Below are positions 10,115-24,827 of a stretch of 43,642 bases of DNA, one piece after another. Numbering within the stretch: position 1 is the stretch's first letter; every line of letters begins with the position of its first letter. The translations under genes and the position numbers were made by a program. Source of the DNA: an uncultured bacterium. Its GTDB lineage: Bacteria; Myxococcota_A; Polyangia; Polyangiales; Houyiibacteriaceae. The notes under the pieces were generated by a model. It saw nothing but the letters and a program-made list of their open reading frames with translations, did not search any database and was not told the DNA's origin. The stretch covers positions 1-43,642 of the forward strand of contig CALLDH010000114.1 of assembly GCA_937998345.1 (NCBI GenBank), given 5' to 3'.

Positions 10115-10122
10115 GTTCCCGC

Positions 10123-11076
10123 TCAACCGAGCACTGTGAGTTTCTTCTTCCCATAGCGATCCATCATGGGAACCTCGCCCGCATTTGCCTGCTCGGCGAG
10201 CTCGCCCTTGAGGAAAACCTCCGCCGCGCGGTAGCTCGACCGAACGAGCGGCCCTGACGCAACGAAGCGAAAACCCATCTCGATGCCCGCCTGCTCGTAG
10301 TCCGCGAACTCAGCGGGCTCTACGTAGCGATCGACGGCAGCGTGGCGCTTGGTGGGCCGTAGGTACTGACCGATCGTCAGCACGTCGACCTCGGCGTCCC
10401 GCAGGAGCTGCATCGCGTCGAGCACCTCGTGGCGCTCTTCGCCGAGACCGACCATCAGCGACGACTTGGTGATGGAAGAGCCGAGTTCCTTGGCGGCCAC
10501 CAAGACGCCAACCGAACGGTCCCAGGAACAGCGTGCATCGCGAATCGAACGCTGCAAGCGCGGCACGACCTCGACATTGTGCGCGAAGACGTCGGGGCGC
10601 CCTTCTCGGACGACCGTTCGAACGTCATCGTGTTGCCCCCGAAAGTCGCCAACCAGCGTCTCGACGCGAAGCGCGGGGCTGTGGTGCTGGATGCGTCGAA
10701 CCGTCTTCGCGACATGGGCAGCGCCGCCGTCGCCCAGGTCGTCTCGATCGACCATGGTCAGAACGACGTACGCGAGCCCCATCTCAGCAAGCGACAGGGC
10801 TGTGTTCTCGGGCTCGTCGTGATCGAGCACGCCGCCCGGCTTCCCGGTGCGGACCGAGCAAAATCGGCAGCCCCGGGTACAGGTTTCTCCGAGGATCATC
10901 ACCGTCGCCGTGCCCTTGCCCCAGCATTCGAAGATGTTGGGACAGCGAGCCTCTTCACACACCGTGTGCAGGCCGCGGCCCCGGAATCGGGCCTTCACAT
11001 CCTGAAATTCATCGTGCTCCGACCCTGCGGGGAGCCGCACACGAAGCCAGTCAGGTTTGCGAGCCGGTAAGGTCAT
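10123..11076 (-). CDS. lipA: lipoyl synthase
   Basis: CEEARCPNIFEC auxiliary cluster motif and radical-SAM CTRGCRFCSV. The ATG at 11074-11076 (MTLPARKPDWLRV) is preceded by GGAG; the ORF-track start at 11133 is a TTG. Confidence 0.93.
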   Translation of the reverse strand: MTLPARKPDWLRVRLPAGSEHDEFQDVKARFRGRGLHTVCEEARCPNIFECWGKGTATVMILGETCTRGCRFCSVRTGKPGGVLDHDEPENTALSLAEMGLAYVVLTMVDRDDLGDGGAAHVAKTVRRIQHHSPALRVETLVGDFRGQHDDVRTVVREGRPDVFAHNVEVVPRLQRSIRDARCSWDRSVGVLVAAKELGSSITKSSLMVGLGEERHEVLDAMQLLRDAEVDVLTIGQYLRPTKRHAAVDRYVEPAEFADYEQAGIEMGFRFVASGPLVRSSYRAAEVFLKGELAEQANAGEVPMMDRYGKKKLTVLG

Positions 11077-11175
11077 CCGTTGCTCCGGTGAGTCCCAAGC
11101 CAAGCTCTTAGGGGGCGGCACTCCCCCTGTCAATCACGTCTAACACTACGAATTGTGACGGTTTCCTCCACTTCG

Positions 11176-11187
11176 CGCAATATTGCG
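11176..11187. promoter_or_regulatory. Perfect 12-bp palindrome CGCAATATTGCG (candidate TetR operator or promoter element), with a second imperfect copy at 11205-11219
   Basis: GCGCAATATT occurs at 11175-11184 and 11205-11214, exactly 30 bp apart. Both lie in the 220-bp lipA/TetR divergent intergenic region, 80-120 bp upstream of the TetR start. Confidence 0.4.
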
Positions 11188-11296
11188 AAATCCAGGCCAA
11201 TACGGCGCAATATTTTCGCAAAAGCCACTTTACCTGGCGCATGCGTGCCCCATAATGGGTCATCGCAGCGGCTCATTTCCCGTGTAGGAGCACTCG

Positions 11297-11914
11297 ATGG
11301 ATGACGAAAGACGACCCAGGCGCGCTGGCCCCGTTGAACGGCCAGGCGCCTTTGGTGGCAAGCGAGACATCAACCGGCGCAAGCGCGTCCAGGATTTGAT
11401 CGATGCAGGGCTTTCGCTCTTTCTCGAGAGAGGGATCGAGGCGGTCACGATCGACGAAGTCGCTCGTGAAGCTGGGATGGCGAAAGGCAACTTCTACCGC
11501 TATTTCCGCGACAAAGCAGATCTCGTAGAGGCGGTCATCGAACCGGTAGCCAGTACAACCCGGGAAGCGGTTCAGGCATGCGACGCCCGACTGCGCGAAG
11601 CGGACGGTCGTGACGACGCAGTCGCCGCATACGGAGAGCTGGGCAATAGGCTCATCGGCGCCCTCGCCATGCACCCCGACGCGATGTGCCTCTATCTGCA
11701 GGAGCGCCGCGCCCCGGCGACCACGGCCCGCCAGGCGATTTCGGACCTGGCGACCGACCTGGATGATCGTGCCATGGCGCTGAGTCAGGTCGCGGCGGAT
11801 CGTCAGCTCGTGGCGATCTCCGACCCGCGAGTGAGCGCGATCGCCGTTCTCGGCGCCGTGGAGGCACTTGCGCTGGCCTCGGTGCGCAACCAAGTGCAAA
11901 TGGATCCCATCTAA
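11297..11914 (+). CDS. TetR/AcrR family transcriptional regulator
   Basis: N-terminal HTH VTIDEVAREAGMAKGNFYRYFRDKADLVEAVI, followed by a helical C-terminal ligand domain. Confidence 0.85.
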   Translation: MDDERRPRRAGPVERPGAFGGKRDINRRKRVQDLIDAGLSLFLERGIEAVTIDEVAREAGMAKGNFYRYFRDKADLVEAVIEPVASTTREAVQACDARLREADGRDDAVAAYGELGNRLIGALAMHPDAMCLYLQERRAPATTARQAISDLATDLDDRAMALSQVAADRQLVAISDPRVSAIAVLGAVEALALASVRNQVQMDPI

Positions 11915-12052
11915 ACCACCAAGAGCCTCATCTCCATCGTGCTGGAAGGGCTCCAGAAATAGCCTCCTGATCGACCAGCCGAATGGGGTCCTAAACACCT
12001 GTCCAGCGCGAAACTACCGCTCCGGCGGCTTCTTCTTCACAATTAGGCGGAT

Positions 12053-13411
12053 ATGGCGGGGAAGCTGATGGTGACCGCGGTGTCGTTCGTCTGGTTGGTT
12101 TGGTTGCTCTTGGCGACACTACCGGGCGGCGCTCGGGCGGCGAGCGGGTCCGCCCAAAGCGGCAGCGCGGGCGAGCTCGGTACCGTCGTGTTGCTCGTCG
12201 TCGTGATCGGCGTCGCGTACGTCCTCGCGCACAACGTGGTGGAACGACTGCAGCGCCGCTTCCTCGTCGTGAGCGGGGCGGAGTATCTATTGCTAGGGTT
12301 TCTGCTCGGCCCGGCGTTCCCTGCGATTCACGCGCTCGACAATGTCACTGGCCTCCTGCCGATCATCGCGCTCGCTGCCGGATGGGTCGGACTGTTGCGT
12401 GGTACCGACTTTGATTTCGCCAGTCTACAGAAGCTCGACCCCGCGACCTGGCGGGTCGTGTTCCTGCATCACTTTCTCCCGGGTGTCGGGGTCGGCGTCG
12501 GCTCGTACTACTTCTTCACCCAGACCGGCTGGGTCCTCACCTCTCCACGGGAGGCCGCGCTGAGCGCCTCAGCGCTCGCCTGCTTCGCGGCGGCCGATTC
12601 GGCCGAGCCGTTCGACCTCTTGGCAAGGCGCTATGAAGTGAGTGGCCGCCTCGCGCCGCTGTTGCGCAACGGAACGCGACTCGGCGACATCGGCGTCATC
12701 CTCGCATTCGGCCTGATCTTCTGTGTGTTCCACGAGAACGCCCCCGAAGCGCAGGACTACTCGCCGGCGCTTTGGGCCTGGGTCACGGTCTTGCTCGGTG
12801 GCGCGCTCGGGTTCTTGTTCTCCCTCTTCCTAGCGGGTGACGAGTCGGATAACTCCCGTTTCCTCGCACTGGTCGGCATCATCGCCTTCGCATCGGGCGG
12901 GGCGTATTTCCTAGAGCTCTCACCGCTCGCGGTAAACCTTTCGATGGGATTCGTGCTGGTGAACTTTGCACGAGGTGGCCAGCTCCTGCACACGACACTC
13001 GAGTCGACGGAACGCCCGATGGCTATCGTCCTGCTCATCTTCGCCGGCGCGATGTGGGAGCGCACCGAGCTCGTGCCGACCTTGCTCGCATTGGGCGGAT
13101 TTCTGGTTCTTCGCACTGGGGCCAAGTGGCTCGCGAGTGTCATCGCTGGCTGGGGCACCAGTCTTCGCAAGGACTTGTTCCGCGGGTTGTTGGCACACGG
13201 CGACGTCACGCTCGCGATGGCAGTCTCCTTCCGACTCGTCTACGACGGGGAAGCGGCGAAGATCGCGTACTCGGTCGTTCTGGGCTCCGTGATTTTGAAC
13301 GACCTGATGGCGCCCCGATTGCTGAGAGGTTTGCTCGTCGACGAGGGAGAGATCCAGCGCGAGCTCAAGGGGTCCGATTCCGAAACATCGGCCGAGGTAA
13401 CTATCAGATGA
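12053..13411 (+). CDS. CPA2-like cation/proton antiporter membrane protein (no RCK domain)
   Basis: 452 aa and polytopic. LVVSGAEYLLLGFLLGP...LLPIIALAAGWVGLLRGTDFD resembles the Na+/H+ exchanger family TM1-3 signature. Its stop overlaps the trkA start (ATGA at 13408-13411). Confidence 0.65.
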   Translation: MAGKLMVTAVSFVWLVWLLLATLPGGARAASGSAQSGSAGELGTVVLLVVVIGVAYVLAHNVVERLQRRFLVVSGAEYLLLGFLLGPAFPAIHALDNVTGLLPIIALAAGWVGLLRGTDFDFASLQKLDPATWRVVFLHHFLPGVGVGVGSYYFFTQTGWVLTSPREAALSASALACFAAADSAEPFDLLARRYEVSGRLAPLLRNGTRLGDIGVILAFGLIFCVFHENAPEAQDYSPALWAWVTVLLGGALGFLFSLFLAGDESDNSRFLALVGIIAFASGGAYFLELSPLAVNLSMGFVLVNFARGGQLLHTTLESTERPMAIVLLIFAGAMWERTELVPTLLALGGFLVLRTGAKWLASVIAGWGTSLRKDLFRGLLAHGDVTLAMAVSFRLVYDGEAAKIAYSVVLGSVILNDLMAPRLLRGLLVDEGEIQRELKGSDSETSAEVTIR

Positions 13412-14748
13412 ACATCGTCGTCATAGGTTTGGGCGAAGTCGGGCGCCACTTGTTGAGCGTCCTGGCCAAAGAGGGACACGACATCGTCGCCGTCGACTCG
13501 AGCTCGAAGGCGGTGCAGTACGCCGAGGAGCACTACGACGTCGCATCGATCGTCGGATACGGCGCGAGCGAAACACTGCTGAAGGTCGCGGGCGTGGGGC
13601 GCGCGGACTTGGTGGTCGCCGTCACGGACCACGATGAGATGAATCTGATCGCGACCCTCGCTGCCAAGCAGCTGGGGGCGAAACACGTGGTGGCTCGCGT
13701 ACAGGGCACGGCCTGGTCCGAGTGGACCGAGGGCATTCGCTACGGGCTGCTCGGGGTCGACGTCGTGATCAACCCCCGCGTGCTCGTCGCGCAGGAGCTC
13801 AGCCGCATCGCCCGATCTTACGGCGCATCGGACGTCGTCGACCTAGCGCAGGATCGGGTAGAGCTCGTGCAGATCGACCTCGACGAATCGCGGGCCCTCA
13901 ACAAGCCTCTGTCCGCGGTCGAGTTACCCCCGCACACCCTGGTGAGCGCGGTCGTCCGAGACGGAGAGCTGTTCGTTCCCGGTGGCGCAGACGTCTTGGT
14001 CAAGGGTGACCGGATCTACCTCATCGGCCGCCCCGAGGGTGTTCTCGCGGCGGAGCGGCTCTTCAGCAAGGAACGCGAGGCACGCCGGGTCTGTATCGTC
14101 GGCGGTGGCGTCGTTGGCAAAGCTCTCGCGCGTGACCTACTGCAGCTGGGGGCGACCGTCATGATGATCGAAAGCGACCTCACGACAGCCGAGGAGGTCA
14201 GTGCCGAGTTTCAGGGAATCGAAGTCGTCCACGGGGACGGCACCGATGGCGCCCTTCTCGAAGAGGAAGAGGTGGGAACGTACGACCTCTTTGCCGCAGT
14301 CACGAGACAGGACGAGATCAACCTGATGGCGGCGCTGCTCGCACAGCGCGCGGGCTGCAAGCGAACTGCAACGATCGTACAGCGCGCCGATTACACGTCG
14401 ATTTATCGCCAGCTCGGCATCGACATCGTTCTCTCTCCGCGCACCGTGGCATCAGACCAAATCCTACGCTTCTCCAGAGGTGGGGGCCTGCACAGCCTGA
14501 CGGTGCTCGAAGACGGTCAGGCGGAGGTCGTCGAGCTCACCGCGAGCCCGAAGTGCCGCGCCGTCAACAAGCCTCTGCACCGGATGAACTTGCCGCGCGG
14601 CTCCCTCCTTGCGGCGATCGTGCACGGCGACGACGTGATCATTCCGCACGGCAAGGACGTCGTGCACCCGGGCGACCGGGTCATCCTAATGACCACCAAG
14701 GAAGCGCGGGCGACCGTCGAACGGCTCTTTCGACCGAGGGGTGAGTGA
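13408..14748 (+). CDS. trkA: Trk-system K+ uptake protein TrkA (tandem RCK/KTN domains)
   Basis: Two Rossmann motifs, VVIGLGEVGRHL and IVGGGVVGKAL, each followed by a TrkA_C-like segment. The ORF 13054..14748 begins inside the previous gene; the ATG at 13408 is the sensible start. Confidence 0.9.
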   Translation: MNIVVIGLGEVGRHLLSVLAKEGHDIVAVDSSSKAVQYAEEHYDVASIVGYGASETLLKVAGVGRADLVVAVTDHDEMNLIATLAAKQLGAKHVVARVQGTAWSEWTEGIRYGLLGVDVVINPRVLVAQELSRIARSYGASDVVDLAQDRVELVQIDLDESRALNKPLSAVELPPHTLVSAVVRDGELFVPGGADVLVKGDRIYLIGRPEGVLAAERLFSKEREARRVCIVGGGVVGKALARDLLQLGATVMMIESDLTTAEEVSAEFQGIEVVHGDGTDGALLEEEEVGTYDLFAAVTRQDEINLMAALLAQRAGCKRTATIVQRADYTSIYRQLGIDIVLSPRTVASDQILRFSRGGGLHSLTVLEDGQAEVVELTASPKCRAVNKPLHRMNLPRGSLLAAIVHGDDVIIPHGKDVVHPGDRVILMTTKEARATVERLFRPRGE

Positions 14749-16235
14749 GCACGCAATCGAGAGACTTTCGTGGCGTGATTCGACCCGTGGGCGCCGTCGT
14801 CCTCGGGATCGGCGTGATGATCGCGCTCTGCGCTGGCGTCGGGATGCTCTGGGATCAGTTCGCGCCCGACCCGACTCGGCCCCAGGGTGGCGCCGCCGAA
14901 CTGGCCTTGTCCGCCATCATCGTTTCGATCTTAGGCTTGGGGGCATTCCTCTACGGCAATCGCTTCGTGTCAGAGCGCATCTCCCGCCGCGAGGCCCTGC
15001 TGGCCGTGAGCCTAATTTGGATTGCCGCGGGCGCCTGCGGAGCGGTGCCGTTCATGCTCGGGGCCGGCATGTCTGCCGCTGACGCATTCTTCGAATCGGT
15101 CAGCGGTCTCACAACCACCGGCGCGACGGTCATCGACGACATCGAGGGGCGCTTGTCGCGGCCGCTGTTGCTTTGGCGCTCGCTGATTCAGTGGCTTGGC
15201 GGGATGGGCATCGTCGTGCTGTTCGTCGCGGTCTTTCCGAACTTGGGTGCCGGAGGAAAGCATTTGTTCCGCGGCGAGGTGCCCGGAACGACCGCCGAAG
15301 GCTTGCGACCTCGAATTGCCGAGACCTCGTTCGCCCTATGGAGGCTGTACGGCGCCTTCACCATCCTCGAGATCGCGCTCCTCAAGGTCCTAGGCCTCGA
15401 TCTATTTGACGCCGTGTGCCACGCGTTCACGACCATGTCGACGGGCGGTTTCTCGACGCTCGACAGCTCGGTGGGCGGTTTCGACAGTGCCCCAGTCGAG
15501 TACGTGATCGCTTGCTTCATGCTGATCGGCAGCGTGAACTACGGCCTCTACTACGGCCTCCTGCGGTCGGGCAGCTGGAAGACTCTGGTTCGAAACGTCG
15601 AGTTCCGATCGTACGTCGGCATCGTGGTCGTCGCAGTGGTCGTGCTGACGGTCCTGAACCTCAGCGTGCACGACGACATCCTGACCTCGTTCCGCTACTC
15701 CTTCTTCATGGTTGCGACGACGATCTCATCGACCGGATATGGCACGGACGACTACAGCGTCTATAGCTCGACGGCGCTAACCATCGTGATCCTCCTGATG
15801 TTCGTCGGCGGTTGCTCCGGATCGACTGCAGGCGGCATCAAGATCGAGAGAGCCGTGCTGATGGGTAAGCAAGCCATCGCACAAATTCAGAAGAGCTTCC
15901 GGCCCGCAACGGTGCAGCTCGTACGCATGGGCAAGGTCGCGATCAATAACCAAGTGCTCGCCGACGTTGGGTCGTTCTTCTTGATCTACATGGGGTGCAT
16001 CGGCGCCGGCCTACTCTTCGTGACGCTGGTCGAGGGCGTTCCGGTGCCCACGGCCTTCGGAACGATGCTGACGTGCTTGTCCAACATGGGCCCTGCACCC
16101 TTCCACGTGGGGCCGGACAACTTTTCTGCGTATTCCGCGGGCAGCAAGTTGTTCTTCTCGATGGCCATGCTGCTTGGACGACTGGAGTTCTTCACGCTCT
16201 TCGCGCTGGTTCTACCTGGGTTCTGGAGACGCTGA
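14745..16235 (+). CDS. trkH: Trk-system K+ uptake protein TrkH
   Basis: Pore-loop-like motifs TTTGATV, MSTGGFST, SSTGYGT and the hallmark GGCSGSTAGGIK. The GTG start overlaps the trkA stop (GTGA). Confidence 0.9.
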   Translation: MSTQSRDFRGVIRPVGAVVLGIGVMIALCAGVGMLWDQFAPDPTRPQGGAAELALSAIIVSILGLGAFLYGNRFVSERISRREALLAVSLIWIAAGACGAVPFMLGAGMSAADAFFESVSGLTTTGATVIDDIEGRLSRPLLLWRSLIQWLGGMGIVVLFVAVFPNLGAGGKHLFRGEVPGTTAEGLRPRIAETSFALWRLYGAFTILEIALLKVLGLDLFDAVCHAFTTMSTGGFSTLDSSVGGFDSAPVEYVIACFMLIGSVNYGLYYGLLRSGSWKTLVRNVEFRSYVGIVVVAVVVLTVLNLSVHDDILTSFRYSFFMVATTISSTGYGTDDYSVYSSTALTIVILLMFVGGCSGSTAGGIKIERAVLMGKQAIAQIQKSFRPATVQLVRMGKVAINNQVLADVGSFFLIYMGCIGAGLLFVTLVEGVPVPTAFGTMLTCLSNMGPAPFHVGPDNFSAYSAGSKLFFSMAMLLGRLEFFTLFALVLPGFWRR

Positions 16236-19200
16236 TGGTCGGCTCGTACAGCATGCCTCCTCCCGGCGAGGAGACCCACGCACGGCGACAAATCACCGTC
16301 ATCATCCTGCTCCTGTTCGGCATGGTGGCGCTCTATCAGTTCGAGCAGTTCGCCCAAGATGGTTTCGACCCGAGCGGAATGCTGGCCTTCGGCTTCGTGG
16401 TTTTGGCCAGCTACACGATCGGCGGACTCGTAGCCCAGATTCGTCTGCCCCACATCACGGGCTACCTGATCGCCGGCCTCGTGTTTGGCCCCTCGCTGGC
16501 AGTTGCTCTCACCGGCCTCGATCTCCCGGCGCCTTTTGACAGAGGCATTCTCAACGCAGAAGTGATCGAGCAGCTCAGCCTGTTCGACACGCTCGCGGTT
16601 GCTCTGATCGCACTGACTGCGGGTGGCGAGCTCAAGCTCCAAGCGCTCAAGAAGGGGATGCGCGCGATCAGCTCGATCCTGGCGGCGCAGATCGTTTCCG
16701 TCGGGGTACTGGTCACCGCGTTCTTCTGGCTAATCTCTGGCGCGGTCCCGTATGTCGGCTTCCCGGGCGTCGAGGGCCTGCCTATGGTCGCGGCGTTGGC
16801 GGTCGGCGCGATGGTCGCCTCGGTGTCGCTAGCCACCTCTCCCGCTGCGACGATCGCCGTCATCATGGAGTCGCGGGCCACAGGCCCGATGACGAGAAAC
16901 GTGCTGTCGGTCGTCGTCCTCAAGGACGTCGTCGTCCTCGTGCTCTTCGCGATCGCGCAGGTCGTGGTTGCACAGCAAATCGGCGTGAGTGCGATGGAGG
17001 GCGGCATCGCCGCCTACCTGATGAAGCACATCGTCTTTTCGATCATCTTCGGCGCGGTGGTCGTGGGCGGCCTGATGGCGCTCTACATTCGGTACGTCAA
17101 TCAGGAGCTCCTGATCTTCGTCGTCGGCGTCGTGTACCTGGTCGCTTTCATCGCTGCAGAGCTCGGTTGGGACCCTGTGCTGGTCTTTCTCGCCGCCGGC
17201 TTCGGCGTTACCAATTTCTCCAAGACTGGCCACCGGCTGATCGAAACTGTCGAACGGCTGTCACTGCCCGTCTACGTGGTCTTTTTTACGCTCGCCGGCG
17301 CAAAGCTCCATCTCGAACAGCTCCAACAAGTCGCGTTGTTCGCGATCGCCCTGGTAGGCGTTCGAGCGTTCGCGATCTACTCCGGAACCAAGTTGGGCTC
17401 CCGGTTGGGCAAAGCCGACGAAGCGACGCAGGCCTTCGGATGGACGGGTTTCGTTTCCCAGGCGGGTGTCTCGATCCTCCTCGCCGCGATGGTCGGGAAC
17501 ACGTTCGGAGAGCTCGGACAGTCGCTCGAAACCTTGATCATCGGCGGTGTCGCAATCAACGAGCTGATTGGGCCGGTGCTGTTCAAGATGGGTCTTACGC
17601 TCTCGGGCGAGGCAAGCACGGGTCGTGCATCGCTCACTCCGGCGAGGCACTTGTCGGTGAAACCTCCCTCGATGAGACCCGAGGGCGGGAAGGGCGAAGC
17701 GAAACAGCTCGAGCCCTGGCCTGAGCACGTCGGGAAGAAGGATCTTTGGGGTGCTCCATTTCATACGAAGAGTGCCGAGCTCAACAATCGCATGCAGGAG
17801 CTCGCTGGTGACCTTCAGAGCATCGTGCGCGAGGTATCGACCGGGCCGCTTCGTGAGTTCCAGCTCGACGCAGGCAAGTACTTGCGCGACTTGCGGCGCG
17901 AGTTCCTGCGTCATCATCGGCGACTGACGGTCCAGGCCCGCGCAGAGGACGGCGGGGAACGCGACGAGCTGGTGACCATGCTTCGCTCTGCGCAATCCGA
18001 TTTGGCGGCCCACTGGCGCGGGATCGTCCTCGGGCGATCGGTGACGCTTGCCAAACTGAACTGGACTCCCGAGATCATGCTGGACAACGTCGATGGCTTG
18101 GTCGACGAGCTGCCCGAGGTCGTCACGGCTCCCTACGAGGACCAATCCTACGATCGCAACGAAGACGACTCGCTCTGGAAACGGTTCCGGCGCCAAGGCC
18201 TTCGTCTACGCCGAGGCTGGCGCAAGGCCTTCGGGCAAAGCCCTCCGACGCGCGATGTTCGGTTGCGTGCTCTTGGACGCTACCATCTCTCGTATGACGC
18301 GCCCGCGCGGCTCGAGGGCTTGGCGGCCCTTTTCGTCGAAGCTGACCGGCACCTCGCGGCTCGCACGCGAAGCCTCTTCGACGGGGTGATCGTGGGCTAC
18401 GACGACATCGTGGACATCGCCGCCGAGTCCGACGCTGACCTCGAAGCCCAACTGGTCCGCCTGCGTCACGACGTCGAGGAGGAACTCGCGCTCGCGCTCG
18501 ACGAGACCGTCCGAATCACCGGCGACGGCACTCATCGCGCCGCCAGCGCGCTCGGCACTGGCTTCGTCAAGATGAAGGAAGACCTCCCGACTTTCGGGAC
18601 CCTCGATTTGCCCACGAGCGAGCGCCGGACGAGCCGCCGCTTCGCGAACCGGATGCGCGCGATGGAGACGCTCACCAAGGACGTATCGAACCTTCGAAAG
18701 GCAAGCTCGGCGGAGTATTCCTCACTTGCAATGGAGCTCGAGCTGCTCGGCCTCGAAGCGCGCATCAAGGACAACGTGGCCGAGTATGTTTCGCGACTGA
18801 CCAGTACTGTGAAGCGCCGCGCGACCTCCCAGGTCGAGCGTGTGAGCGACACGCTTCAGAAGGCACTGACTGAGCTGAACGCCGAGCTCGAAAGCAACTA
18901 CTCGGGCGATGAGCTGGCGGCGGCGCTGCGACGGGCTACGGAGGCGACCAGCAAAGCCACGGGCGAGGCCGCACGTGTCACTATGGAGCTGTACCAAGAC
19001 CTGAGCGACGATACGAAGATCGCGCCTCTGCTCGACACCTTGGTGGACGCGTGCCGCGGCCTCACCCCACGCTACAGGGTGACGGTTGGCCAGCGTCAGA
19101 CCGGCGAATGGCGCCTGCCGACGTCCCTGCCGGAGGTGGAGGTGCCCTTCAGAGAAGTGGTGCTGACTTACATCGACAGCCGGGTCGCGCCGAAGCTGCT

Positions 19201-20749
19201 TGCGAGCCGGCGTGAGCTCGCCGAGCGCGTACAGCCACTCGCAAACCTGCTGCAAGAGCTCGAGCGTGTCGTTGCCTTCAACGTGGAACTGGCAACCGCG
19301 GAGCTCGAGGTCGTTCACGACGAGCCGATCCCCGAAGAGATGCACACATTGCTCCGCGACATGGTCTACGGCCAGCTCGAGAGGAACTACAACTCGCTCG
19401 AGGAGATCCGGGCTGACGCCAAGGGCTGGCCCGCGATCATCGAGGCGGAGATGCGTGATGCAGCACTTGGTACGCTCGAAACGCTTCGCGGCGAGCTCGC
19501 CGAGGGTTCGTTCAGCAAGTCGCGCCTCGAAGCCATGCGCCGCGCGGCTAGTGGTCTTCGGATGATCGCGAAAGCCGAGCGGCAACCTCGCATGCAACGC
19601 CTCAAGGCGCAGCTCCGCGGCGGTCTTCGCGCGTTGTTCGGTGAGGAGCGGCTCGAACGTTGGAGCGAGCGGCTCGGGCTGACCGGAGCCTTGCCTAGCG
19701 AGGAGCTCACCGCCGGCACGTTCACCGCTCCTGAGGTGGCGGCCGATCTACCTCTGGTCTACCGCCGGCTGTTTGCCGCTGACACGATGGAGGCTGGAGA
19801 CGTGCTCACTGGCCGGGAGCAAGAGATCCGCCGCGCCGAATCCGTGCTTGCGAGCGAGGTCAAAGGCAGGCTTCGATCTGTCGCGCTGGTTGGCGTCGAC
19901 GGCGTGGGCAAAGCAGCGGTATCGAGCGCGATCGTGCGCAGCCGTCGTTGGAAGAACGTGAAGCGAGTCGTGTTCACGGCTCCGGTTAGCATCGAAGACG
20001 TCGACGTGATCTTCCAGGACGCGCCCGAGGGTCAGCTCGTGGTAGTTGACGGTCTCCACTGGATGCTCTCGATGGCGCCGGGGGGCTTCGACCCCCTGCG
20101 CAGGTTCGTCAAAGGCATCATCGAAGAAGGCGGCAGGCGCCGTTGGTTGGCGCACGGCGCCGTCCTGTTCTGGAACTTCGCCTCGACCGTCGCGCCACTG
20201 CGTGACGCATTCCCCGAAACGATTCGACTCGAGCCGTTGAGCGAGCCAGAGCTGCAAGCGGCCGTCATCGCCAGACACCGCCTGAGCGGATTCGAGCATT
20301 CGTTCGACCGTGGAGACGGATCGCCCATCGAAGGCTTGTTTGCGCGAAGCGCTACCCGCATTCGCCGCCCATACGACCAGTACTTCCACGAGCTTCACGA
20401 TGCGACCGGAGGGCTCGTGCGTGACGCTCTTCGTCTATGGCTGGCTTCAATCCGGGGAATCCACGATGACATCGTGCACGTGGGACCGATCCCGGCCTCG
20501 CCGTATGCGCGCGTCAGGCGCCTGCCCGATGACATTCTCGTCAACCTGTACCAGATCGCGCGCGAAGGTTGGATCGACGCAGCCGGCCAGGCGAGGCTGT
20601 TCAGGCTCGACGTCAACACCGCCCAAGCACAGCTGAGCCGTCTCGCCCACCTCGGTTTGCTCGACGAACGCGCCGGCGCATTCGTGATCGCGGTCCATCT
20701 TCGAGGCGTGTTGGGCCGCGTGTTCGATGAGCGAGGATGGGTCCTGTGA
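16235..20749 (+). CDS. 1,504-aa multidomain protein. N-terminal CPA2-like antiporter membrane domain (aa ~18-455), ~750-aa helical/coiled-coil region, C-terminal AAA_16/Arch-ATPase-like P-loop NTPase, and a wHTH-like tail
   Basis: The ATG at 16235 overlaps the trkH stop (TGATG). Membrane domain: RLPHITGYLIAGLVFGPSL..., about 11-13 hydrophobic helices, nt 16286-17599. Then a long R/E/L/A-rich helical stretch. Next comes LTGREQEIRRAESVL...VALVGVDGVGKAAV (Walker A, nt 19892-19915), Walker B-like QLVVVDGLHW (nt 20036-20050) and IRLEPLSEPELQAAV. The terminal ~80 aa (LVNLYQIAREGWID...LSRLAHLGLLDE) look like a winged helix. One uninterrupted frame. Confidence 0.75.
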   Translation: MVGSYSMPPPGEETHARRQITVIILLLFGMVALYQFEQFAQDGFDPSGMLAFGFVVLASYTIGGLVAQIRLPHITGYLIAGLVFGPSLAVALTGLDLPAPFDRGILNAEVIEQLSLFDTLAVALIALTAGGELKLQALKKGMRAISSILAAQIVSVGVLVTAFFWLISGAVPYVGFPGVEGLPMVAALAVGAMVASVSLATSPAATIAVIMESRATGPMTRNVLSVVVLKDVVVLVLFAIAQVVVAQQIGVSAMEGGIAAYLMKHIVFSIIFGAVVVGGLMALYIRYVNQELLIFVVGVVYLVAFIAAELGWDPVLVFLAAGFGVTNFSKTGHRLIETVERLSLPVYVVFFTLAGAKLHLEQLQQVALFAIALVGVRAFAIYSGTKLGSRLGKADEATQAFGWTGFVSQAGVSILLAAMVGNTFGELGQSLETLIIGGVAINELIGPVLFKMGLTLSGEASTGRASLTPARHLSVKPPSMRPEGGKGEAKQLEPWPEHVGKKDLWGAPFHTKSAELNNRMQELAGDLQSIVREVSTGPLREFQLDAGKYLRDLRREFLRHHRRLTVQARAEDGGERDELVTMLRSAQSDLAAHWRGIVLGRSVTLAKLNWTPEIMLDNVDGLVDELPEVVTAPYEDQSYDRNEDDSLWKRFRRQGLRLRRGWRKAFGQSPPTRDVRLRALGRYHLSYDAPARLEGLAALFVEADRHLAARTRSLFDGVIVGYDDIVDIAAESDADLEAQLVRLRHDVEEELALALDETVRITGDGTHRAASALGTGFVKMKEDLPTFGTLDLPTSERRTSRRFANRMRAMETLTKDVSNLRKASSAEYSSLAMELELLGLEARIKDNVAEYVSRLTSTVKRRATSQVERVSDTLQKALTELNAELESNYSGDELAAALRRATEATSKATGEAARVTMELYQDLSDDTKIAPLLDTLVDACRGLTPRYRVTVGQRQTGEWRLPTSLPEVEVPFREVVLTYIDSRVAPKLLASRRELAERVQPLANLLQELERVVAFNVELATAELEVVHDEPIPEEMHTLLRDMVYGQLERNYNSLEEIRADAKGWPAIIEAEMRDAALGTLETLRGELAEGSFSKSRLEAMRRAASGLRMIAKAERQPRMQRLKAQLRGGLRALFGEERLERWSERLGLTGALPSEELTAGTFTAPEVAADLPLVYRRLFAADTMEAGDVLTGREQEIRRAESVLASEVKGRLRSVALVGVDGVGKAAVSSAIVRSRRWKNVKRVVFTAPVSIEDVDVIFQDAPEGQLVVVDGLHWMLSMAPGGFDPLRRFVKGIIEEGGRRRWLAHGAVLFWNFASTVAPLRDAFPETIRLEPLSEPELQAAVIARHRLSGFEHSFDRGDGSPIEGLFARSATRIRRPYDQYFHELHDATGGLVRDALRLWLASIRGIHDDIVHVGPIPASPYARVRRLPDDILVNLYQIAREGWIDAAGQARLFRLDVNTAQAQLSRLAHLGLLDERAGAFVIAVHLRGVLGRVFDERGWVL

Positions 20750-21795
20750 TGTCTACCCTTCGGCGCCACTGCGTGTTGATTCTCTTGGTCGCGTCGATTG
20801 CGGCGCCGGCCGGAGCGCAGCTCCTCGACTCACCCAGGTGGCAATCTAGTCAACCAGAGGAGCAGGCCGAGCCACCACCGCCCACCGCCGAACCGCCACC
20901 CGAGCCGAAGCCTGCCCCGGCGCCGGCGCCCACCGAACCAGAGGCGCAGGCCGATGAGTCTTCCTTGGAGCCGCCGCGCTGGATCGCCAAGGCGCCTCCG
21001 GCACCCGTCCAGGCCGAGGAGCCTCCAACGACGGAAGACCGCAATCAGCTCCTTGTCCTCTTCCTGACACTCCTCGCCGTGGGCGTCGTCCTGTTCGGCG
21101 CCGAACGTGCCCGCAGCTGGATCACGACCAACATTCCATTGCGGCGTGCTCTTGGCGCGCTGGTCTTCGTTCTGCGCCTGGTCGGCTTCGGGCTTCTGCT
21201 GGCGATCATCTTCGAAATGGTCCCTCGGGGTCAGGACTGGATTCTCTGGACACTGCTGGTCATGGCGTTGGTCATCGGCTGGTCAGTGCGTGATCTCTTC
21301 GCCGACCTCGTGGCCGGGGGAATCTTGGCCGCCGAGCGGCGCGTGAAGAAGGGCATGTGGGTTTCGGGAGACGGTTTCCAAGGCACCGTCGAAGGACGGT
21401 CGCTTCGGGCGACCTGGCTGCGCGATGGACAAGGGCATCGATTGACGGTGCCCAACCGAGCGATGGTCGGCGCGCCGATGGTGTATGACGCGGGCTCGGA
21501 CGCCGAGCACGAGGTGGTCGTGCGCCTCGAGGGCTATGATGACGCCGGCAAGGTGCGAATGGCGCTGACCGACGCGATCCTCAGCTCGCCGTGGGTTCTT
21601 GCCGGTGCCACTCCGGTAGTGCTGCGCGACCCCGCCGATCCGGTCGTCTGGCGCGTTCGAACCAAGCTCCTCGAGCCTCGCTTTTCGGTGCACTTCGAGG
21701 GGGAGCTCCTCGAGCGCGTCGAGGACCTGCTGCGCCACGAACCAGCCCCCGAAGATCGCGAAACCGTCCCCAGCGAATCCCCTCCCGCAGGCTAG
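20749..21795 (+). CDS. MscS-family mechanosensitive channel-like protein with signal peptide and Pro-rich N-terminal extension
   Basis: Signal-like MSTLRRHCVLILLVASIAAPAGAQ, then a PEP/PAP-rich ~90 aa stretch, then 3 TM helices. This is followed by LVAGGILAAERRVKKGMWVSGDGFQGTVEGRSLRATWLRDGQGHRLTVPNRAMV, an MscS TM3/beta-domain pattern. The ATG at 20749 overlaps the upstream stop (TGATG); an alternative ATG is at 20737. Confidence 0.7.
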   Translation: MSTLRRHCVLILLVASIAAPAGAQLLDSPRWQSSQPEEQAEPPPPTAEPPPEPKPAPAPAPTEPEAQADESSLEPPRWIAKAPPAPVQAEEPPTTEDRNQLLVLFLTLLAVGVVLFGAERARSWITTNIPLRRALGALVFVLRLVGFGLLLAIIFEMVPRGQDWILWTLLVMALVIGWSVRDLFADLVAGGILAAERRVKKGMWVSGDGFQGTVEGRSLRATWLRDGQGHRLTVPNRAMVGAPMVYDAGSDAEHEVVVRLEGYDDAGKVRMALTDAILSSPWVLAGATPVVLRDPADPVVWRVRTKLLEPRFSVHFEGELLERVEDLLRHEPAPEDRETVPSESPPAG

Positions 21796-22832
21796 GCGAG
21801 CCAGTCGCGAAGCTCGCCCGTCACAACACGCGGCGCCTGTTGGAGCTCTTCTACCGTCTTGGCGCCACAGAGCAGCATGACGGATCGGAGCTCGCGCTCC
21901 ACGCGCAACAGAAACGAGCGCGCTCCGTCGACACCCCCTTCGAGGAACGCTTGATAGACGTTCCGCGCGATGCCGGCGCAGCTCGCGCCGAGGGCAATCG
22001 CGCGGGCCACGTCCATGCCAGTGCGGATGCCGCCCGTCGCAATCGTCGTCATCCCGGCGCCGACGCAATATTGAACCGACGCGGCGGTAGGAATACCCCA
22101 GTCCCATAGGGCCTCGCCGAGCGCCCGCCCGTCACCCTCCGCGCGCAATGTTTCGACACCGACCCACGAAGTGCCGCCTGCACCAGAGGTGTCGGCGTGC
22201 CGGATGCCAATCGCGCGAAGCCTGGCGGCGACCTCTCGACTGATCCCGCTCCCCGTCTCTTTGGCAATGACGGGTACGTCGAGCTCTGACCAGAGTCGTT
22301 GGAAGGTTTGGAAGCCACCGCCGAAGTCCCGATCGCCTTCGGGCTGAACCAGCTCCATGGCCGGGTTCATGTGCACGCAGAGAGCGTCAGCCCCGACATC
22401 GGCCAGCATTTGAGCGATTGCCTCCGTGGAGAGATCACGCGCCTGCACCACACCAACGTTACCGAAGAGAAGGGCATCCGGCGCGTGCGCGCGCACCTGG
22501 TACGTCCAACTCGTCTCAGGGCGCTTCTGCATCGCGCGCTGACTTCCCAATCCAAATGCGTAACCGAGCTCGTTCGCGATCGAGGCTAGCGCTTGGTTGA
22601 TTTCTCCGGCGCGTTCATGCCCGCCGGTCATCGCGGCGATCAGCAACGGGGCGCGGAGCTCTTTGCCGAGCAGGCGGACGCGAGTGTCAATCGAATCGAA
22701 GTCGGCCTCGGGGAGCGCCTGATGTACGAGGCGCACGCATTCGAGGAGGGTAGTGCGGTGCCGAAACGCAACCTCGTCGGTCGCGCACAGGTCCAGATGA
22801 TCGGCCTTTCTCTGCTCAATATCTGCGGTCAT
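21792..22832 (-). CDS. fni: isopentenyl-diphosphate delta-isomerase, type 2 (FMN-dependent)
   Basis: Motifs QRKADHLDL, LLIAAMTGG, VIAKETGSGIS, GAGGTSW, ATGGIRTG. Confidence 0.9.
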   Translation of the reverse strand: MTADIEQRKADHLDLCATDEVAFRHRTTLLECVRLVHQALPEADFDSIDTRVRLLGKELRAPLLIAAMTGGHERAGEINQALASIANELGYAFGLGSQRAMQKRPETSWTYQVRAHAPDALLFGNVGVVQARDLSTEAIAQMLADVGADALCVHMNPAMELVQPEGDRDFGGGFQTFQRLWSELDVPVIAKETGSGISREVAARLRAIGIRHADTSGAGGTSWVGVETLRAEGDGRALGEALWDWGIPTAASVQYCVGAGMTTIATGGIRTGMDVARAIALGASCAGIARNVYQAFLEGGVDGARSFLLRVERELRSVMLLCGAKTVEELQQAPRVVTGELRDWLA

Positions 22833-22908
22833 CGCCTTGCTTGCTCAGCAGCGTCCTGCCGTGTACGTAGCTCGGAATAAGGACACTGACACCGTGGCGC
22901 AAGGGCAA

Positions 22909-23931: not shown

Positions 23932-24827
23932 TGGGCTTCGGGCGAGGCAAGGTCATCTTGCTCGGTGAACATGCCGTCGTTCACGGTTGCCCGGCAATCG
24001 CAGTCGGGATCGAACGGGGCGTCACTGCCGAAGCAGTGACGGCCGAGCGTGACCTCCTGCGCCTCTCGCCCTGGGACTTGGCGCTCGGGCCCAATTCGAA
24101 CGGGTACGAGCCCCTCGAACGCGCGTTCGCGGCTGCGCTCGCAATGTATCCCTCACGTCCTCCACTAGAGGTCAGCGCCAAGGTGGACCTCCCGGCTGGC
24201 GCGGGCCTTGGCTGCTCCGCAGCAATCGGCGTAGCCGTGCTGGACGCCATCGACGAGGTCCTCGGCGTCGACCGGTCGCGAAAGGCGCTCGCGGCGGCCG
24301 CGCTCGTTTGGGAGAAGATCTTTCACGGCAATCCGTCTGGAATCGACAACACGATGTCAGCCATCGGAGGCGTTGCGCTCTATCGCAAGGGCGATGAACT
24401 ACGACCGCTGCACTCGAACAAGCCATTGCACTTGGTGATCGGTTACAGTGGCGAGCCCTCGAGCACGAAAGAGATGGTTGCGTTGGTTGACAGGCAGCTC
24501 GAGAACGACCGCGAACGAGTCACCAAGGCCTTCGCGGGCATCGAGGTGCTGGTGCGCAATGCCAAGCTCGCCATCGAAGCCGGTGACCACGTCGCGCTCG
24601 GGCAGTTGCTCGACCTTAATCACACGCTCCTCAGCTCGCTGATGCTGTGCACTACCAAGCTGGATGATATGTGCCAGGCCGCGCGACGAGCCGGAGCGTT
24701 GGGCGCCAAGATGACCGGCGCCGGCGGTGGAGGCTGCATGTTCGCGCTGGCGCCCAAGCGTGATGAAGCGCTGCGACTGCGGGACGTGCTCGGGGAGGGT
24801 TCGTTCGTCGCCGAGGTGACGGCATGA
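23931..24827 (+). CDS. mvk: mevalonate kinase
   Basis: GKVILLGEHAVVHG and GHMP motif PAGAGLGCSAA. The start overlaps the upstream stop (TGATG). Confidence 0.85.
   Translation: MGFGRGKVILLGEHAVVHGCPAIAVGIERGVTAEAVTAERDLLRLSPWDLALGPNSNGYEPLERAFAAALAMYPSRPPLEVSAKVDLPAGAGLGCSAAIGVAVLDAIDEVLGVDRSRKALAAAALVWEKIFHGNPSGIDNTMSAIGGVALYRKGDELRPLHSNKPLHLVIGYSGEPSSTKEMVALVDRQLENDRERVTKAFAGIEVLVRNAKLAIEAGDHVALGQLLDLNHTLLSSLMLCTTKLDDMCQAARRAGALGAKMTGAGGGGCMFALAPKRDEALRLRDVLGEGSFVAEVTA

What the first reader, a model, noticed from the sequence alone, without database searches (positions are those of the whole stretch)
12053..21795. Five-gene translationally coupled ion-homeostasis operon: CPA2-like / TrkA / TrkH / CPA2-ATPase fusion / MscS-like
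**Seen in sequence**
- All five genes are on the + strand and every junction overlaps: ATGA at 13408-13411, GTGA at 14745-14748, TGATG at 16233-16237, TGATG at 20747-20751.
- Uptake (TrkAH), two putative cation/proton antiporter modules and a mechanosensitive-type release valve would therefore be made stoichiometrically from one transcript.
- The first CPA2-like protein (452 aa) has no RCK domain of its own and is start/stop-coupled to the RCK protein TrkA.

**Established knowledge**
- RCK proteins can regulate both Trk/Ktr uptake channels and separate CPA2 antiporters. The KhtT/KhtU-type arrangement is an example.

**Inference**
- One TrkA may gate opposing K+ fluxes.
- The whole locus may be an integrated osmotic/K+ emergency module, with the giant ATPase fusion as sensor or regulator.
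Basis: partly seen in the sequence, partly recalled or inferred. Interest (0 to 1): 0.65.

Follow-up and report, generated by a model that had tools for sequence, protein, structure and literature searches.

The report
Potassium operon with giant antiporter fusion
Uncultured marine myxobacteria carry a tightly packed, conserved operon that joins a potassium uptake system, two antiporter-like membrane proteins and a stretch-activated-type channel, and its oldest part is an undescribed 1,000-residue helical protein that always sits next to that channel gene.

Summary
Five + strand genes (12053-21795) overlap at every junction, and order and overlaps are conserved in about 70 species-level Myxococcota genomes.

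- The 452-aa protein has no Pfam hit. Profile comparison and its predicted fold show it is a divergent cation/proton antiporter (CPA)-fold paralogue of the giant protein's N-terminus.
- TrkA, TrkH and an MscS-like protein are confirmed.
- The giant protein's "ATPase" is an Orc1/Cdc6/RuvB-like AAA+ plus winged-helix module behind about 670 aa of long helices. Its catalytic motifs are degenerate here (GKA, VVVDG) and are lost in most of the family.

- A TetR-family gene lies 138 bp upstream with a conserved promoter-like site.
- A nearly invariant 62-bp non-coding block precedes gene 1.
- The evolutionary core is the pair of C-terminal module plus MscS-like gene. That pair also occurs alone, with TrkAH only, or with CPA parts only.

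The 452-aa protein was found only where the CPA domain is fused, and once without TrkAH nearby. This argues against one TrkA gating it.

I read the locus as a K+/turgor homeostasis operon built around an uncharacterised scaffold-channel pair. All function is inferred.

The parts
11172..11256 (+). Candidate tetR promoter and operator region. It holds a GCAATATTGC palindrome (11177-11186), GCGCAATATTTTCGC (11205-11219), a -35-like TTTACC (11229-11234) and a -10-like CATAAT (11251-11256).
   Evidence: It is the only sigma-70-like match in 11000-23000. The hexamers and the GCGCAATATTTTCGC block are conserved across about 40 species-level loci. The sequence was read. Function is inferred.
11297..11914 (+). 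TetR-family transcription regulator (205 aa). It is the probable local repressor, and is either the first gene of the unit or a separately transcribed regulator.
   Evidence: Pfam TetR_N scores E 1.3e-17, 63.8 bits against a cut-off of 24. It is conserved immediately upstream of g1 in the close clade and in L002, and is absent or remote in the clade at about 50% identity.
11991..12052 (+). Nearly invariant non-coding block just upstream of g1: CTAAACAnnTGTCCAGC, then AAACTACCGC, then GCTTCTTCTTCACAATT. It is a candidate internal promoter or operator.
   Evidence: The blocks show 0-2 mismatches in about 40 loci whose proteins differ by 10-30%. There is no Rfam match, no stable consensus RNA fold and no sigma-70 consensus match.
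12053..13411 (+). g1: a 452-aa divergent CPA-fold membrane protein with an N-terminal signal peptide and no RCK domain. The conserved Asp212 (12686-12688) lies in an LGD motif at the position of the essential CPA aspartate.
   Evidence: There is no Pfam or NCBIfam hit. hhalign against the g4 N-terminus gives 98% probability and E 1.9e-13. The AF2 model has pLDDT 72 and pTM 0.74. Foldseek PDB hits are all Na+/H+ exchangers. Conserved residues come from the 12-sequence alignment.
13408..14748 (+). trkA: a 446-aa protein with two RCK units (TrkA_N and TrkA_C, each twice), the gating ring of the Trk K+ uptake system.
   Evidence: NCBIfam NF007039 scores 431.9 bits against a cut-off of 293. Pfam TrkA_N scores E 4.8e-47 and TrkA_C E 7e-24.
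14745..16235 (+). trkH: the 496-aa K+ translocating subunit.
   Evidence: Pfam TrkH scores E 5.4e-51, 174 bits. NCBIfam TIGR00933 scores 275.9 bits, below its 331 cut-off.
16235..17674 (+). g4 N-terminal CPA (Na_H_Exchanger) membrane domain, aa 1-480. An invariant K230-D231 (16922-16927) occupies the position of the CPA ND/DD/QD motif.
   Evidence: Pfam PF00999 matches aa 59-450 at E 3.1e-22, 79.4 bits against a cut-off of 26.2. The motif mapping to KefC Q155-D156 comes from a weak hhalign against a KefC sequence recalled from memory and from PMC11150392.
17762..19684 (+). g4 central cytoplasmic region, roughly aa 510-1150. It consists of very long helices (one of 87 residues) and two small beta hairpins. 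No family is known for it.
   Evidence: The AF2 model of aa 481-1504 has mean pLDDT 83.6. No Pfam family reaches threshold.
19742..20746 (+). g4 C-terminal AAA+-like alpha/beta and lid domains plus a winged helix (aa about 1170-1504). Motifs: Walker A GVDGVGKA (19892-19915), a Walker B-like VVVDG, a sensor-2-like GGLVRDALRLW, and the near-invariant YRRLF and ARHxLSG.
   Evidence: Best Foldseek PDB hits are RuvB, Orc1/Cdc6 and Hda, at E about 1e-5 and TMt 0.4-0.5. Pfam AAA_16 is sub-threshold at 21.7 bits against 32.6.
20749..21795 (+). g5: an MscS-like membrane protein of 348 aa (352 aa if it starts at 20737). It has a signal peptide, a Pro/Ala/Glu-rich linker, three predicted TM helices, the MscS beta-domain (21292-21471) and a C-terminal alpha/beta region.
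   Evidence: Pfam MS_channel_2nd scores E 6.7e-10, 39.4 bits against a cut-off of 20.2. NCBIfam MscK, MscM and MscS hits fall far below their cut-offs. An MscS-like gene follows the C-module in every context examined.

Best explanation
**What it is**
- This is a conserved, probably co-transcribed K+/turgor homeostasis operon of uncultured Polyangiales-type Myxococcota.
- It encodes, in order:
  - a TetR-family regulator;
  - a divergent CPA-fold membrane protein (g1);
  - the TrkA-TrkH K+ uptake system;
  - a CPA antiporter domain fused to a 1,000-aa cytoplasmic module, made of long helices plus a degenerate Orc1/Cdc6-like AAA+ and winged-helix unit (g4);
  - an MscS-like channel protein (g5).

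**What is shown**
- The evolutionary core is the C-module plus the MscS-like gene.
- TrkAH and the CPA parts joined that core in some lineages, and the CPA domain became fused to the C-module.
- g1 was found only where the CPA domain is fused.

**What is inferred about mechanism**
- TrkAH loads K+.
- The CPA units exchange K+ (or Na+) for H+. g1 and the g4 N-terminus may form a heterodimer.
- The MscS-like protein releases solutes on osmotic downshift.
- The C-module acts as a largely non-catalytic scaffold or regulator that binds nucleotide at most. It would couple the channel to the transporters.
- TetR sets expression.
For: **Gene identities**
- g1 is CPA-fold.
- Junction overlaps were verified and are conserved.
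- Synteny holds across about 70 species-level genomes, down to 41-50% identity of g4.

**The C-module**
- The C-module model has pLDDT 83.6 and AAA+/winged-helix fold matches.
- Its family is large: 1526 cluster representatives at E<=1e-3 and 196 at E<=1e-30. It includes fusions of about 1500 aa and standalone forms of about 1000 aa.

**An MscS-like gene immediately downstream in every architecture examined**
- TrkA-TrkH-Cmod-MscS in L078, L080, L081 and L087.
- Cmod-MscS alone in L086 and L088.
- g1-like, CPA::Cmod and MscS without TrkAH in L082.
- CPA::Cmod and MscS without g1 or TrkAH in L077.

**Catalytic motifs are not conserved while other motifs are**
- The Walker A lysine is kept in 26 of 59 fused and 7 of 21 standalone representatives.
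- RHxLSG and YRRLF are kept in about 58 of 59.

**Other points**
- No PADLOC hit was found.
- The flanking genes are core metabolism and are syntenic across species.
Against: - No expression, transport or interaction data exist. Every functional step is inferred from homology and gene neighbourhood.
- The ion specificity of either CPA-fold protein is unknown, and their motif (GD, KD) is non-canonical. Either could be inactive.
- The pore-lining helix of g5 is not Gly/Ala-rich as in E. coli MscS, so its channel activity is not assured.
- The conserved 62-bp block between tetR and g1 may be an internal promoter. Transcription may therefore not be a single unit that includes tetR.
- The contexts of distant family members are a small sample, 10 loci outside the window-type architecture.
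Confidence: 0.6

Rival explanations
1. A single TrkA ring gates both TrkH (uptake) and the RCK-less g1 antiporter (efflux), as a KhtT/KhtU-like pairing. The giant fusion acts as an ATP-driven sensor.
For: g1 lacks an RCK domain. Its stop overlaps the trkA start by 4 nt in 40 of 42 close relatives, and the junction stays tight in most distant ones. Separate RCK proteins regulating CPA2 antiporters are established; KhtTU is discussed in PMC10117811 and PMC10636490.
Against: - A g1-like gene (43% identity) occurs with CPA::Cmod and the MscS-like gene but without TrkAH nearby in L082.
- TrkAH occurs with the standalone C-module and the MscS-like gene without any g1 in four loci.
- g1 therefore appears only where the CPA domain is fused, and does not follow TrkA.
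- TrkA is a full-length two-RCK TrkA equivalog, not a short KhtT-type protein.
- The ATPase motifs of the fusion are degenerate.
Confidence: 0.15
2. g1 and the CPA domain of g4 form an obligatory heterodimer of two paralogous CPA-fold proteins. One may be catalytic and the other regulatory. This would replace the homodimer seen in all characterised CPA antiporters. It can be true together with the best explanation.
For: - g1 and the g4 N-terminus are homologous over their full length.
- g1 is present in every CPA-fused locus with enough upstream sequence except L077, and in none of six standalone C-module loci.
- Both keep the aspartate at the essential position, with different neighbours (GD and KD).
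- KefC and other CPA proteins work as dimers (PMC11150392).
Against: L077 has the fusion without g1 within 4.9 kb. Co-occurrence is also expected for two independent transporters kept in one operon. No interaction prediction could be run.
Confidence: 0.3
3. The C-module plus the MscS-like protein is an anti-phage or abortive-infection system. An NTPase sensor would open a membrane channel effector, and the link to K+ transporters would be incidental.
For: Many defence systems pair a STAND or AAA+ NTPase with a membrane effector. A distant member, P0386, has a canonical GSGKT loop and weak AAA_16, AAA_22 and nSTAND1 hits.
Against: - g1, the C-module and g5 have no PADLOC match.
- The locus sits in the same core-metabolism neighbourhood (lipA upstream, FMN dehydrogenase and isoprenoid genes downstream) across dozens of species. 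It is not in a variable island.
- It is repeatedly fused or linked to K+ transport genes.
- The nucleotide-binding motifs are decayed in most members.
Confidence: 0.03
4. The winged helix of the C-module binds DNA. g4 would then be a membrane-tethered transcription regulator that reports ion or turgor status, rather than a regulator of the channel.
For: The AAA+ plus winged-helix architecture resembles Orc1/Cdc6 and RuvB, where the winged helix contacts DNA. The winged-helix residues ARQGW and HLRG are highly conserved.
Against: A dedicated TetR regulator is already present. Winged-helix domains in AAA+ proteins also mediate protein contacts. The invariant adjacency to an MscS-like gene is not explained by this reading.
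Confidence: 0.05

Closest known systems
KefC / KefB glutathione-gated K+/H+ antiporters (CPA2 with a fused C-terminal RCK domain)
   Same: A CPA membrane domain is followed by a large cytoplasmic regulatory extension on the same polypeptide. JGI annotates g4 homologues as 'Kef-type K+ transport system membrane component KefB'. An aspartate is invariant at the position that a weak alignment maps to the essential ion-binding Asp (D156 in KefC).
   Different: g4 has no RCK/KTN domain. The tail is about 670 aa of long helices plus a degenerate AAA+ and winged-helix unit. The motif is KD, not QD. The KefC TM11 lysine position aligns to Ser in g4, by a weak alignment. Neither a sequence nor a profile search finds PDB CPA structures.
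KhtT/KhtU (YhaT/YhaU) of Bacillus subtilis: a separate RCK protein regulating a CPA2 K+/H+ antiporter
   Same: A CPA-fold protein without its own RCK domain (g1) is encoded next to, and translationally coupled with, an RCK protein gene.
   Different: The RCK protein here is a full-length two-RCK TrkA equivalog followed by TrkH. Across relatives, g1 was found only where the CPA domain of g4 is fused, and TrkAH occurs without it. g1 carries a signal peptide and a GD motif.
TrkAH K+ uptake system
   Same: trkA meets an NCBIfam equivalog cut-off. trkH meets the Pfam family. The genes are adjacent and overlapping, as in many bacteria.
   Different: The pair is embedded between two CPA-fold genes and followed by an MscS-like gene. 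TrkH falls below the NCBIfam TrkH cut-offs.
MscS-family mechanosensitive channels (MscS, MscK/KefA, MscM)
   Same: g5 has the MscS beta-domain preceded by a hydrophobic helix and followed by an alpha/beta region.
   Different: Scores lie far below the MscS, MscK and MscM equivalog cut-offs. g5 has an N-terminal signal peptide and a Pro-rich linker. The helix before the beta-domain is not Gly/Ala-rich. Its gene was paired with that of the 1,000-aa C-module in every context examined, a partner not described for any MscS-type channel in the papers I could search.
Orc1/Cdc6, RuvB and Hda type AAA+ proteins with a C-terminal winged helix
   Same: The fold of the last 330 or so residues matches: an alpha/beta P-loop domain, a helical lid with a GxxxRxALxLL-type sensor-2 helix, and a winged helix.
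   Different: Walker A is GKA and Walker B is VVVDG. The catalytic residues are not conserved in the family. The module is attached to a membrane transporter through a long helical region. No link to DNA replication or repair is apparent.
SLC9C1 (sperm Na+/H+ exchanger with fused voltage-sensor and cyclic-nucleotide-binding domains)
   Same: It is an example of a CPA exchanger carrying a very large fused regulatory apparatus. It is among the top fold matches to g1's CPA fold.
   Different: It is eukaryotic, its regulatory domains are unrelated, and there is no MscS or Trk partner.

Membership tests
CPA superfamily (Pfam Na_H_Exchanger PF00999): g4 N-terminus | Significant match to the family profile across the transporter domain | tested here: met
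   E 3.1e-22, 79.4 bits against a cut-off of 26.2, aa 59-450 matching profile positions 3-374 of 375.
CPA superfamily: g1 (452 aa) | Significant match to the curated family profile | tested here: not met
   No Pfam family at E<=0.1 and no relevant NCBIfam hit. A profile search against PDB sequences finds nothing.
CPA superfamily: g1 (452 aa) | Homology to a bona fide CPA domain and the NhaA/NapA-type fold | tested here: met
   hhalign against the g4 N-terminal profile gives 98% probability and E 1.9e-13 over 395 columns. The AF2 model has pLDDT 72 and pTM 0.74. The top 50 Foldseek PDB hits are all Na+/H+ exchangers, and NapA 5bz2 gives TM 0.64/0.74.
CPA2 subfamily (NapA, KefC type) | DD (or QD in Kef) motif on the ion-binding helix and a lysine on TM10/11 | tested here: not met
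   g4 has an invariant K230-D231 and g1 an invariant G211-D212 at the aligned position. The mapping to KefC Q155-D156, and of KefC K307 to a Ser in g4, rests on a low-confidence hhalign against a KefC sequence recalled from memory and on PMC11150392. The second Asp is kept.
Kef-type antiporter (KefC/KefB) | C-terminal RCK/KTN domain fused to the CPA domain | tested here: not met
   No TrkA_N or TrkA_C hit in g4 or g1. The tail folds as long helices plus AAA+ and a winged helix.
TrkA (Trk system gating ring) | Two tandem RCK units (TrkA_N and TrkA_C, twice) and an equivalog-level score | tested here: met
   NF007039 scores 431.9 bits against a cut-off of 293 over aa 1-442. TrkA_N and TrkA_C each match in two stretches.
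TrkH (Trk/Ktr/HKT superfamily) | Match to the TrkH family profile | tested here: met
   PF02386 scores E 5.4e-51, 174 bits against a cut-off of 27. The NCBIfam TIGR00933 (275.9 against 331) and NF008020 (305.6 against 866) cut-offs are not reached.
MscS family: g5 | MscS beta-domain (PF00924) following a pore-type TM helix | tested here: met
   PF00924 scores 39.4 bits against a cut-off of 20.2, aa 186-245. A hydrophobic helix directly precedes it (read). Equivalog models for MscS, MscK and MscM are far below cut-off, so it is a family member, not an orthologue of any named channel.
MscS family: g5 | Mechanosensitive gating and heptameric channel activity | not testable with these tools
   This needs patch clamp or downshock survival assays.
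AAA+ ATPase: g4 C-terminus | AAA+ alpha/beta plus lid fold | tested here: met
   Foldseek hits to RuvB, Orc1/Cdc6, Hda and Vps4 at E 1e-5 to 1e-4 on a model with pLDDT 83.6. Pfam AAA_16 is sub-threshold.
AAA+ ATPase: g4 C-terminus | Walker A GxxxxGK[ST] and Walker B hhhhDE, conserved across the family | tested here: not met
   The window has GVDGVGKA and VVVDG. Among 50%-cluster representatives the Walker A lysine is kept in 26 of 59 fused and 7 of 21 standalone forms. The position after the Walker B acid is Gly in 48 of 59. The sensor-2 Arg is kept in 28 of 59 and 4 of 21.
TetR family regulator (11297-11914) | N-terminal TetR helix-turn-helix domain | tested here: met
   PF00440 scores E 1.3e-17, 63.8 bits against a cut-off of 24. 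The ligand and operator are unknown.
KhtTU-type RCK and CPA pair | The CPA partner depends on, and co-occurs with, the RCK protein | tested here: not met
   g1-like occurs without TrkAH in L082. TrkAH occurs without g1 in L078, L080, L081 and L087. Physical dependence is not testable here.
Known anti-phage defence systems | Match to PADLOC models | tested here: not met
   No hit for g1, the C-module or g5 at E<=0.01.

The most novel reading that the evidence does not exclude
The 1,000-aa helical, pseudo-AAA+ and winged-helix protein and its downstream MscS-like partner form a previously unrecognised regulated channel complex that was seen here only in Myxococcota. In this lineage the complex has captured a CPA heterodimer (g1 plus the fused g4 domain) and TrkAH. 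Together they would form one physical K+/turgor 'homeostat' in which uptake, exchange and emergency release are mechanically or allosterically coupled through the long coiled-coil scaffold.
Probability: 0.2. Interest if true: 0.8.

Novelty: new variant of a known kind. Interest (0 to 1): 0.55.

Why it matters
- Bacterial K+ and turgor control is usually described as separate uptake systems, antiporters and mechanosensitive valves, each with its own small regulator (RCK domains, c-di-AMP, glutathione).
- Here all three classes are locked into one translationally coupled operon. The operon is built around a large protein family with no curated Pfam model: 1526 representatives of 50%-identity clusters at E<=1e-3. 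Public sources name it 'hypothetical protein', 'ATP-binding protein' or 'cation:proton antiporter'.
- If the C-module really controls an MscS-type channel or couples it to transporters, it would be a new way of regulating mechanosensitive channels and CPA antiporters.
- A CPA heterodimer would also be new.
- The practical outcome is corrected annotation. g1 is a CPA-fold protein rather than a hypothetical protein. The g4 tail is a degenerate AAA+ scaffold rather than an ATPase.
- The work also yields concrete constructs for testing.

Tried and rejected
- **PDB sequence searches.** Sequence and profile searches with g1, the g4 N-terminus and its profile found nothing. Only fold comparison worked.
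- **RNA element upstream of g1.** An Rfam scan of 11000-22000 at E<=1 gave no match, so no riboswitch was found upstream of g1. RNAalifold on the conserved 62-bp block gave no stable structure, -3.2 kcal/mol. I therefore dropped the idea of an RNA leader element.
- **Promoter and terminator scan.** It gave one promoter-like site, upstream of tetR, and terminator-like sites at chance level, 9 against 7.3 +/- 2.3. This is no evidence for internal terminators, and such scans are weak in high-GC DNA.
- **L077 upstream ORF.** The 456-aa ORF upstream in L077 is not a g1 relative.
- **Metagenome scan.** The second returned only 3 loci, so the wide survey of C-module contexts rests on 10 individual look-ups.
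- **Structure jobs.** The models used shallower alignments of 15 and 24 rows.
- **KefC alignment.** hhalign of g4N and g1 against a KefC sequence written from memory gave low probabilities. I use it only as a guide to motif positions.
- **Literature.** Searches for this gene combination found no relevant paper, and one query was malformed.
- **Defence-system reading.** It was tested with PADLOC and rejected.

Full report
**1. Observation**

The region holds five + strand ORFs:
- g1, 12053-13411, 452 aa.
- trkA, 13408-14748, 446 aa.
- trkH, 14745-16235, 496 aa.
- g4, 16235-20749, 1504 aa.
- g5, 20749 (or 20737)-21795, 348 or 352 aa.

The window is 59-69% G+C throughout, with no compositional break at the locus.

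**2. Gene identities**

| Gene | Result |
|---|---|
| trkA | NCBIfam TrkA equivalog, 431.9 bits against a cut-off of 293; two TrkA_N and two TrkA_C stretches |
| trkH | Pfam TrkH, E 5e-51; below the NCBIfam TrkH cut-offs |
| g4 aa 59-450 | Na_H_Exchanger, E 3e-22; the remaining 1,050 aa give only a sub-threshold AAA_16 hit |
| g5 | MscS beta-domain, 39.4 bits against 20.2; weak, sub-threshold similarity to MscK, MscM and MscS models |
| g1 | No Pfam or NCBIfam hit; all sources call it 'hypothetical protein' |

**3. g1 is a CPA-fold protein**

- BLASTP of g1 against the g4 N-terminus gave 25% identity over 173 aa, E 7e-7.
- A profile of 12 diverse g1 orthologues against a profile of 12 g4 N-termini gave 98% probability and E 1.9e-13 over 395 aligned columns.
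- An AlphaFold2 model has pLDDT 72 and pTM 0.74. It matched only Na+/H+ exchangers in the PDB, including NapA at TM 0.64/0.74, NhaP, NHA2, SLC9C1 and SOS1.
The "CPA2" label is still not established.
  - At the position of the ND/DD/QD motif, g1 has an invariant G-D and g4 an invariant K-D.
  - The second aspartate is the residue the KefC structure paper calls strictly conserved and essential. It is kept in both.
  - The mapping to KefC comes from a weak alignment.
- g1 orthologues all begin with a signal-peptide-like segment ending in AxA.

**4. The g4 tail**

- A model of aa 481-1504 has mean pLDDT 83.6. It shows about 670 aa of very long helices with two small hairpins, then an alpha/beta P-loop domain, a helical lid and a winged helix.
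- The best PDB matches are RuvB, Orc1/Cdc6 and Hda.
- In the window protein the Walker A reads GVDGVGKA, with no Ser or Thr after the lysine.
- The Walker B-like strand reads VVVDG, with no catalytic Glu. The Asp varies to Asn or Ser in close relatives.
- A sensor-2-like arginine, in GGLVRDALRLW, is present.
- Across representatives of the whole family:
  - The Walker A lysine survives in 26 of 59 fused and 7 of 21 standalone forms.
  - The sensor-2 arginine survives in 28 of 59 and 4 of 21.
  - Non-catalytic motifs (YRRLF, ARHxLSG, the C-terminal Trp) are nearly invariant.
- One distant member, P0386, still has a canonical GSGKT loop.
- I conclude that this is an AAA+-derived module whose conserved role is not ATP hydrolysis.

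**5. Synteny and the core of the system**

- A scan of one genome per species returned 75 loci. All are Myxococcota MAGs labelled Polyangiales, Sandaracinaceae, Sandaracinus sp., Myxococcales or Deltaproteobacteria.
- tblastn with the window proteins shows g1-trkA-trkH-g4-g5 in the same order wherever the contig is long enough. This holds down to 41-50% identity of the g4 tail.
- The start/stop overlaps are conserved in the close clade.
- An exhaustive HMMER search with the tail alone found 1526 cluster representatives at E<=1e-3 and 196 at E<=1e-30. They fall into fusions of about 1500 aa and standalone proteins of about 1000 aa.
- Individual contexts show the following architectures:

| Architecture | Loci |
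|---|---|
| TrkA-TrkH-Cmod-MscS | L078, L080, L081, L087 |
| Cmod-MscS alone | L086, L088 |
| g1-like, CPA::Cmod, MscS, no TrkAH | L082 |
| CPA::Cmod, MscS, with neither g1 nor TrkAH | L077 |
| Window type | L083 |

- The only constant is the C-module immediately followed by an MscS-like gene, usually overlapping it.
- g1 was found only where the CPA domain is fused. TrkAH comes and goes independently of g1.
- Named members are 'hypothetical protein', 'ATP-binding protein' or 'cation:proton antiporter', all from Myxococcota.

**6. Regulation**

- A TetR-family gene lies at 11297-11914 on the same strand, 138 bp upstream of g1. It is conserved there in the close clade and in L002.
- The only sigma-70-like site in 11000-23000 is TTTACC-16-CATAAT at 11229-11256, upstream of tetR. 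It is conserved across species, together with an adjacent GCGCAATATTTTCGC element.
- Between tetR and g1 lies a 62-bp block that is almost invariant in about 40 species.
  - It matches no Rfam family.
  - It forms no stable consensus RNA fold.
  - It fits no sigma-70 consensus.
  - I take it to be a DNA-level promoter or operator of unknown type.
- Terminator-like hairpins occur at chance frequency.
- The 3' end of g5 overlaps the end of a convergent FMN-dependent dehydrogenase gene.

**7. How it most likely works**

- Shown:
  - The gene identities.
  - The fold assignments.
  - The conserved order and overlaps.
  - The modular distribution.
  - The decay of the ATPase motifs.
- Inferred:
  - The genes are co-expressed under TetR control.
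  - TrkAH imports K+.
  - g1 and the g4 CPA domain exchange K+ or Na+ for H+, possibly as a heterodimer.
  - g5 is a tension-gated release valve.
  - The C-module is a scaffold or allosteric regulator that acts on g5 and, where fused, on the CPA domain.
It does not fit the distribution of g1.
- A defence-system reading was tested and rejected (and the conserved core-genome neighbourhood).

**8. Comparison with known systems and novelty**

- The parts belong to known kinds: TrkAH, the CPA superfamily, the MscS family, TetR and the AAA+ fold.
- The following are not described in the papers I could search and are not modelled in Pfam:
  - the giant fusion;
  - the divergent CPA paralogue;
  - above all, the conserved pairing of a 1,000-aa pseudo-AAA+ protein with an MscS-like gene.
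- I file the locus as a new variant of a known kind of system, a K+/osmotic homeostasis operon, containing an uncharacterised protein family.
- Interest is moderate to good. It would surprise a transport specialist and gives clear experiments. Every functional statement is still inference, and the family was seen only in one phylum.

Noticed in passing
window 11297-11914 (+) and 11172-11256: A TetR-family regulator gene lies 138 bp upstream of g1 on the same strand, and the finding did not mention it. Its promoter-like TTTACC-16-CATAAT and an adjacent GCGCAATATTTTCGC / GCAATATTGC palindromic element are conserved across species.
   Followed up: partly
window 11991-12052: A 62-bp non-coding block upstream of g1 (CTAAACAnnTGTCCAGC, AAACTACCGC, GCTTCTTCTTCACAATT) is nearly invariant in about 40 species-level genomes. 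It has no Rfam match, no stable RNA fold and no sigma-70 consensus. Its function is unknown.
   Followed up: partly
window 21792-22832 (-) and 22837-26742 (+): A convergent FMN-dependent dehydrogenase-family gene overlaps the stop of g5 by 4 nt. Downstream lie polyprenyl synthase and GHMP-kinase genes, which look like a mevalonate/isoprenoid cluster. The same neighbours occur in L002 and most relatives.
   Followed up: partly
window 9032-11133 (-): Lipoyl synthase (10123-11133) and a 2-oxoacid dehydrogenase E1 component (9032-10126) lie upstream on the opposite strand. The lipoyl synthase neighbour is conserved in most relatives and the E1 component also in L002, which shows the operon sits in a stable core-genome neighbourhood.
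   Followed up: partly
window 13054-14748 (+), 15995-20749 (+): The mechanical ORF list extends the trkA and g4 frames upstream (564 aa and 1584 aa) into the preceding genes. These are frame read-throughs, not real N-termini. Homologue lengths (446 aa and 1504 aa) support the overlapping starts.
   Followed up: yes
L001 10001-10200 (P0109, Sandaracinus sp. MAG): The g4 homologue of the clade at about 50% identity has an N-terminal extension rich in His, Gly and Asp (HGDGG repeats). Gene calls leave a gap of about 250 bp between trkH and g4. The trkH-g4 junction is therefore not tightly coupled in that clade.
   Followed up: no
window 12053-12140 and 20749-21050: g1 and g5 both begin with cleavable-looking signal peptides. 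g5 then has a low-complexity linker of about 70 aa rich in Pro, Ala and Glu before its first TM helix. This is unusual for CPA and MscS family members.
   Followed up: no
L086 7001-11414 (Logan SRR8556129 contig, 50% G+C): A distant standalone C-module (P0386, 1103 aa) has a canonical GSGKT Walker A. It scores 29.0 bits on AAA_16 (below its 32.6 cut-off) and 27.8 bits on AAA_22 (cut-off 27). It sits next to an MscS-like gene in a low-GC genome with no K+ transporter nearby, and may represent the ancestral, catalytically active form of the pair.
   Followed up: partly
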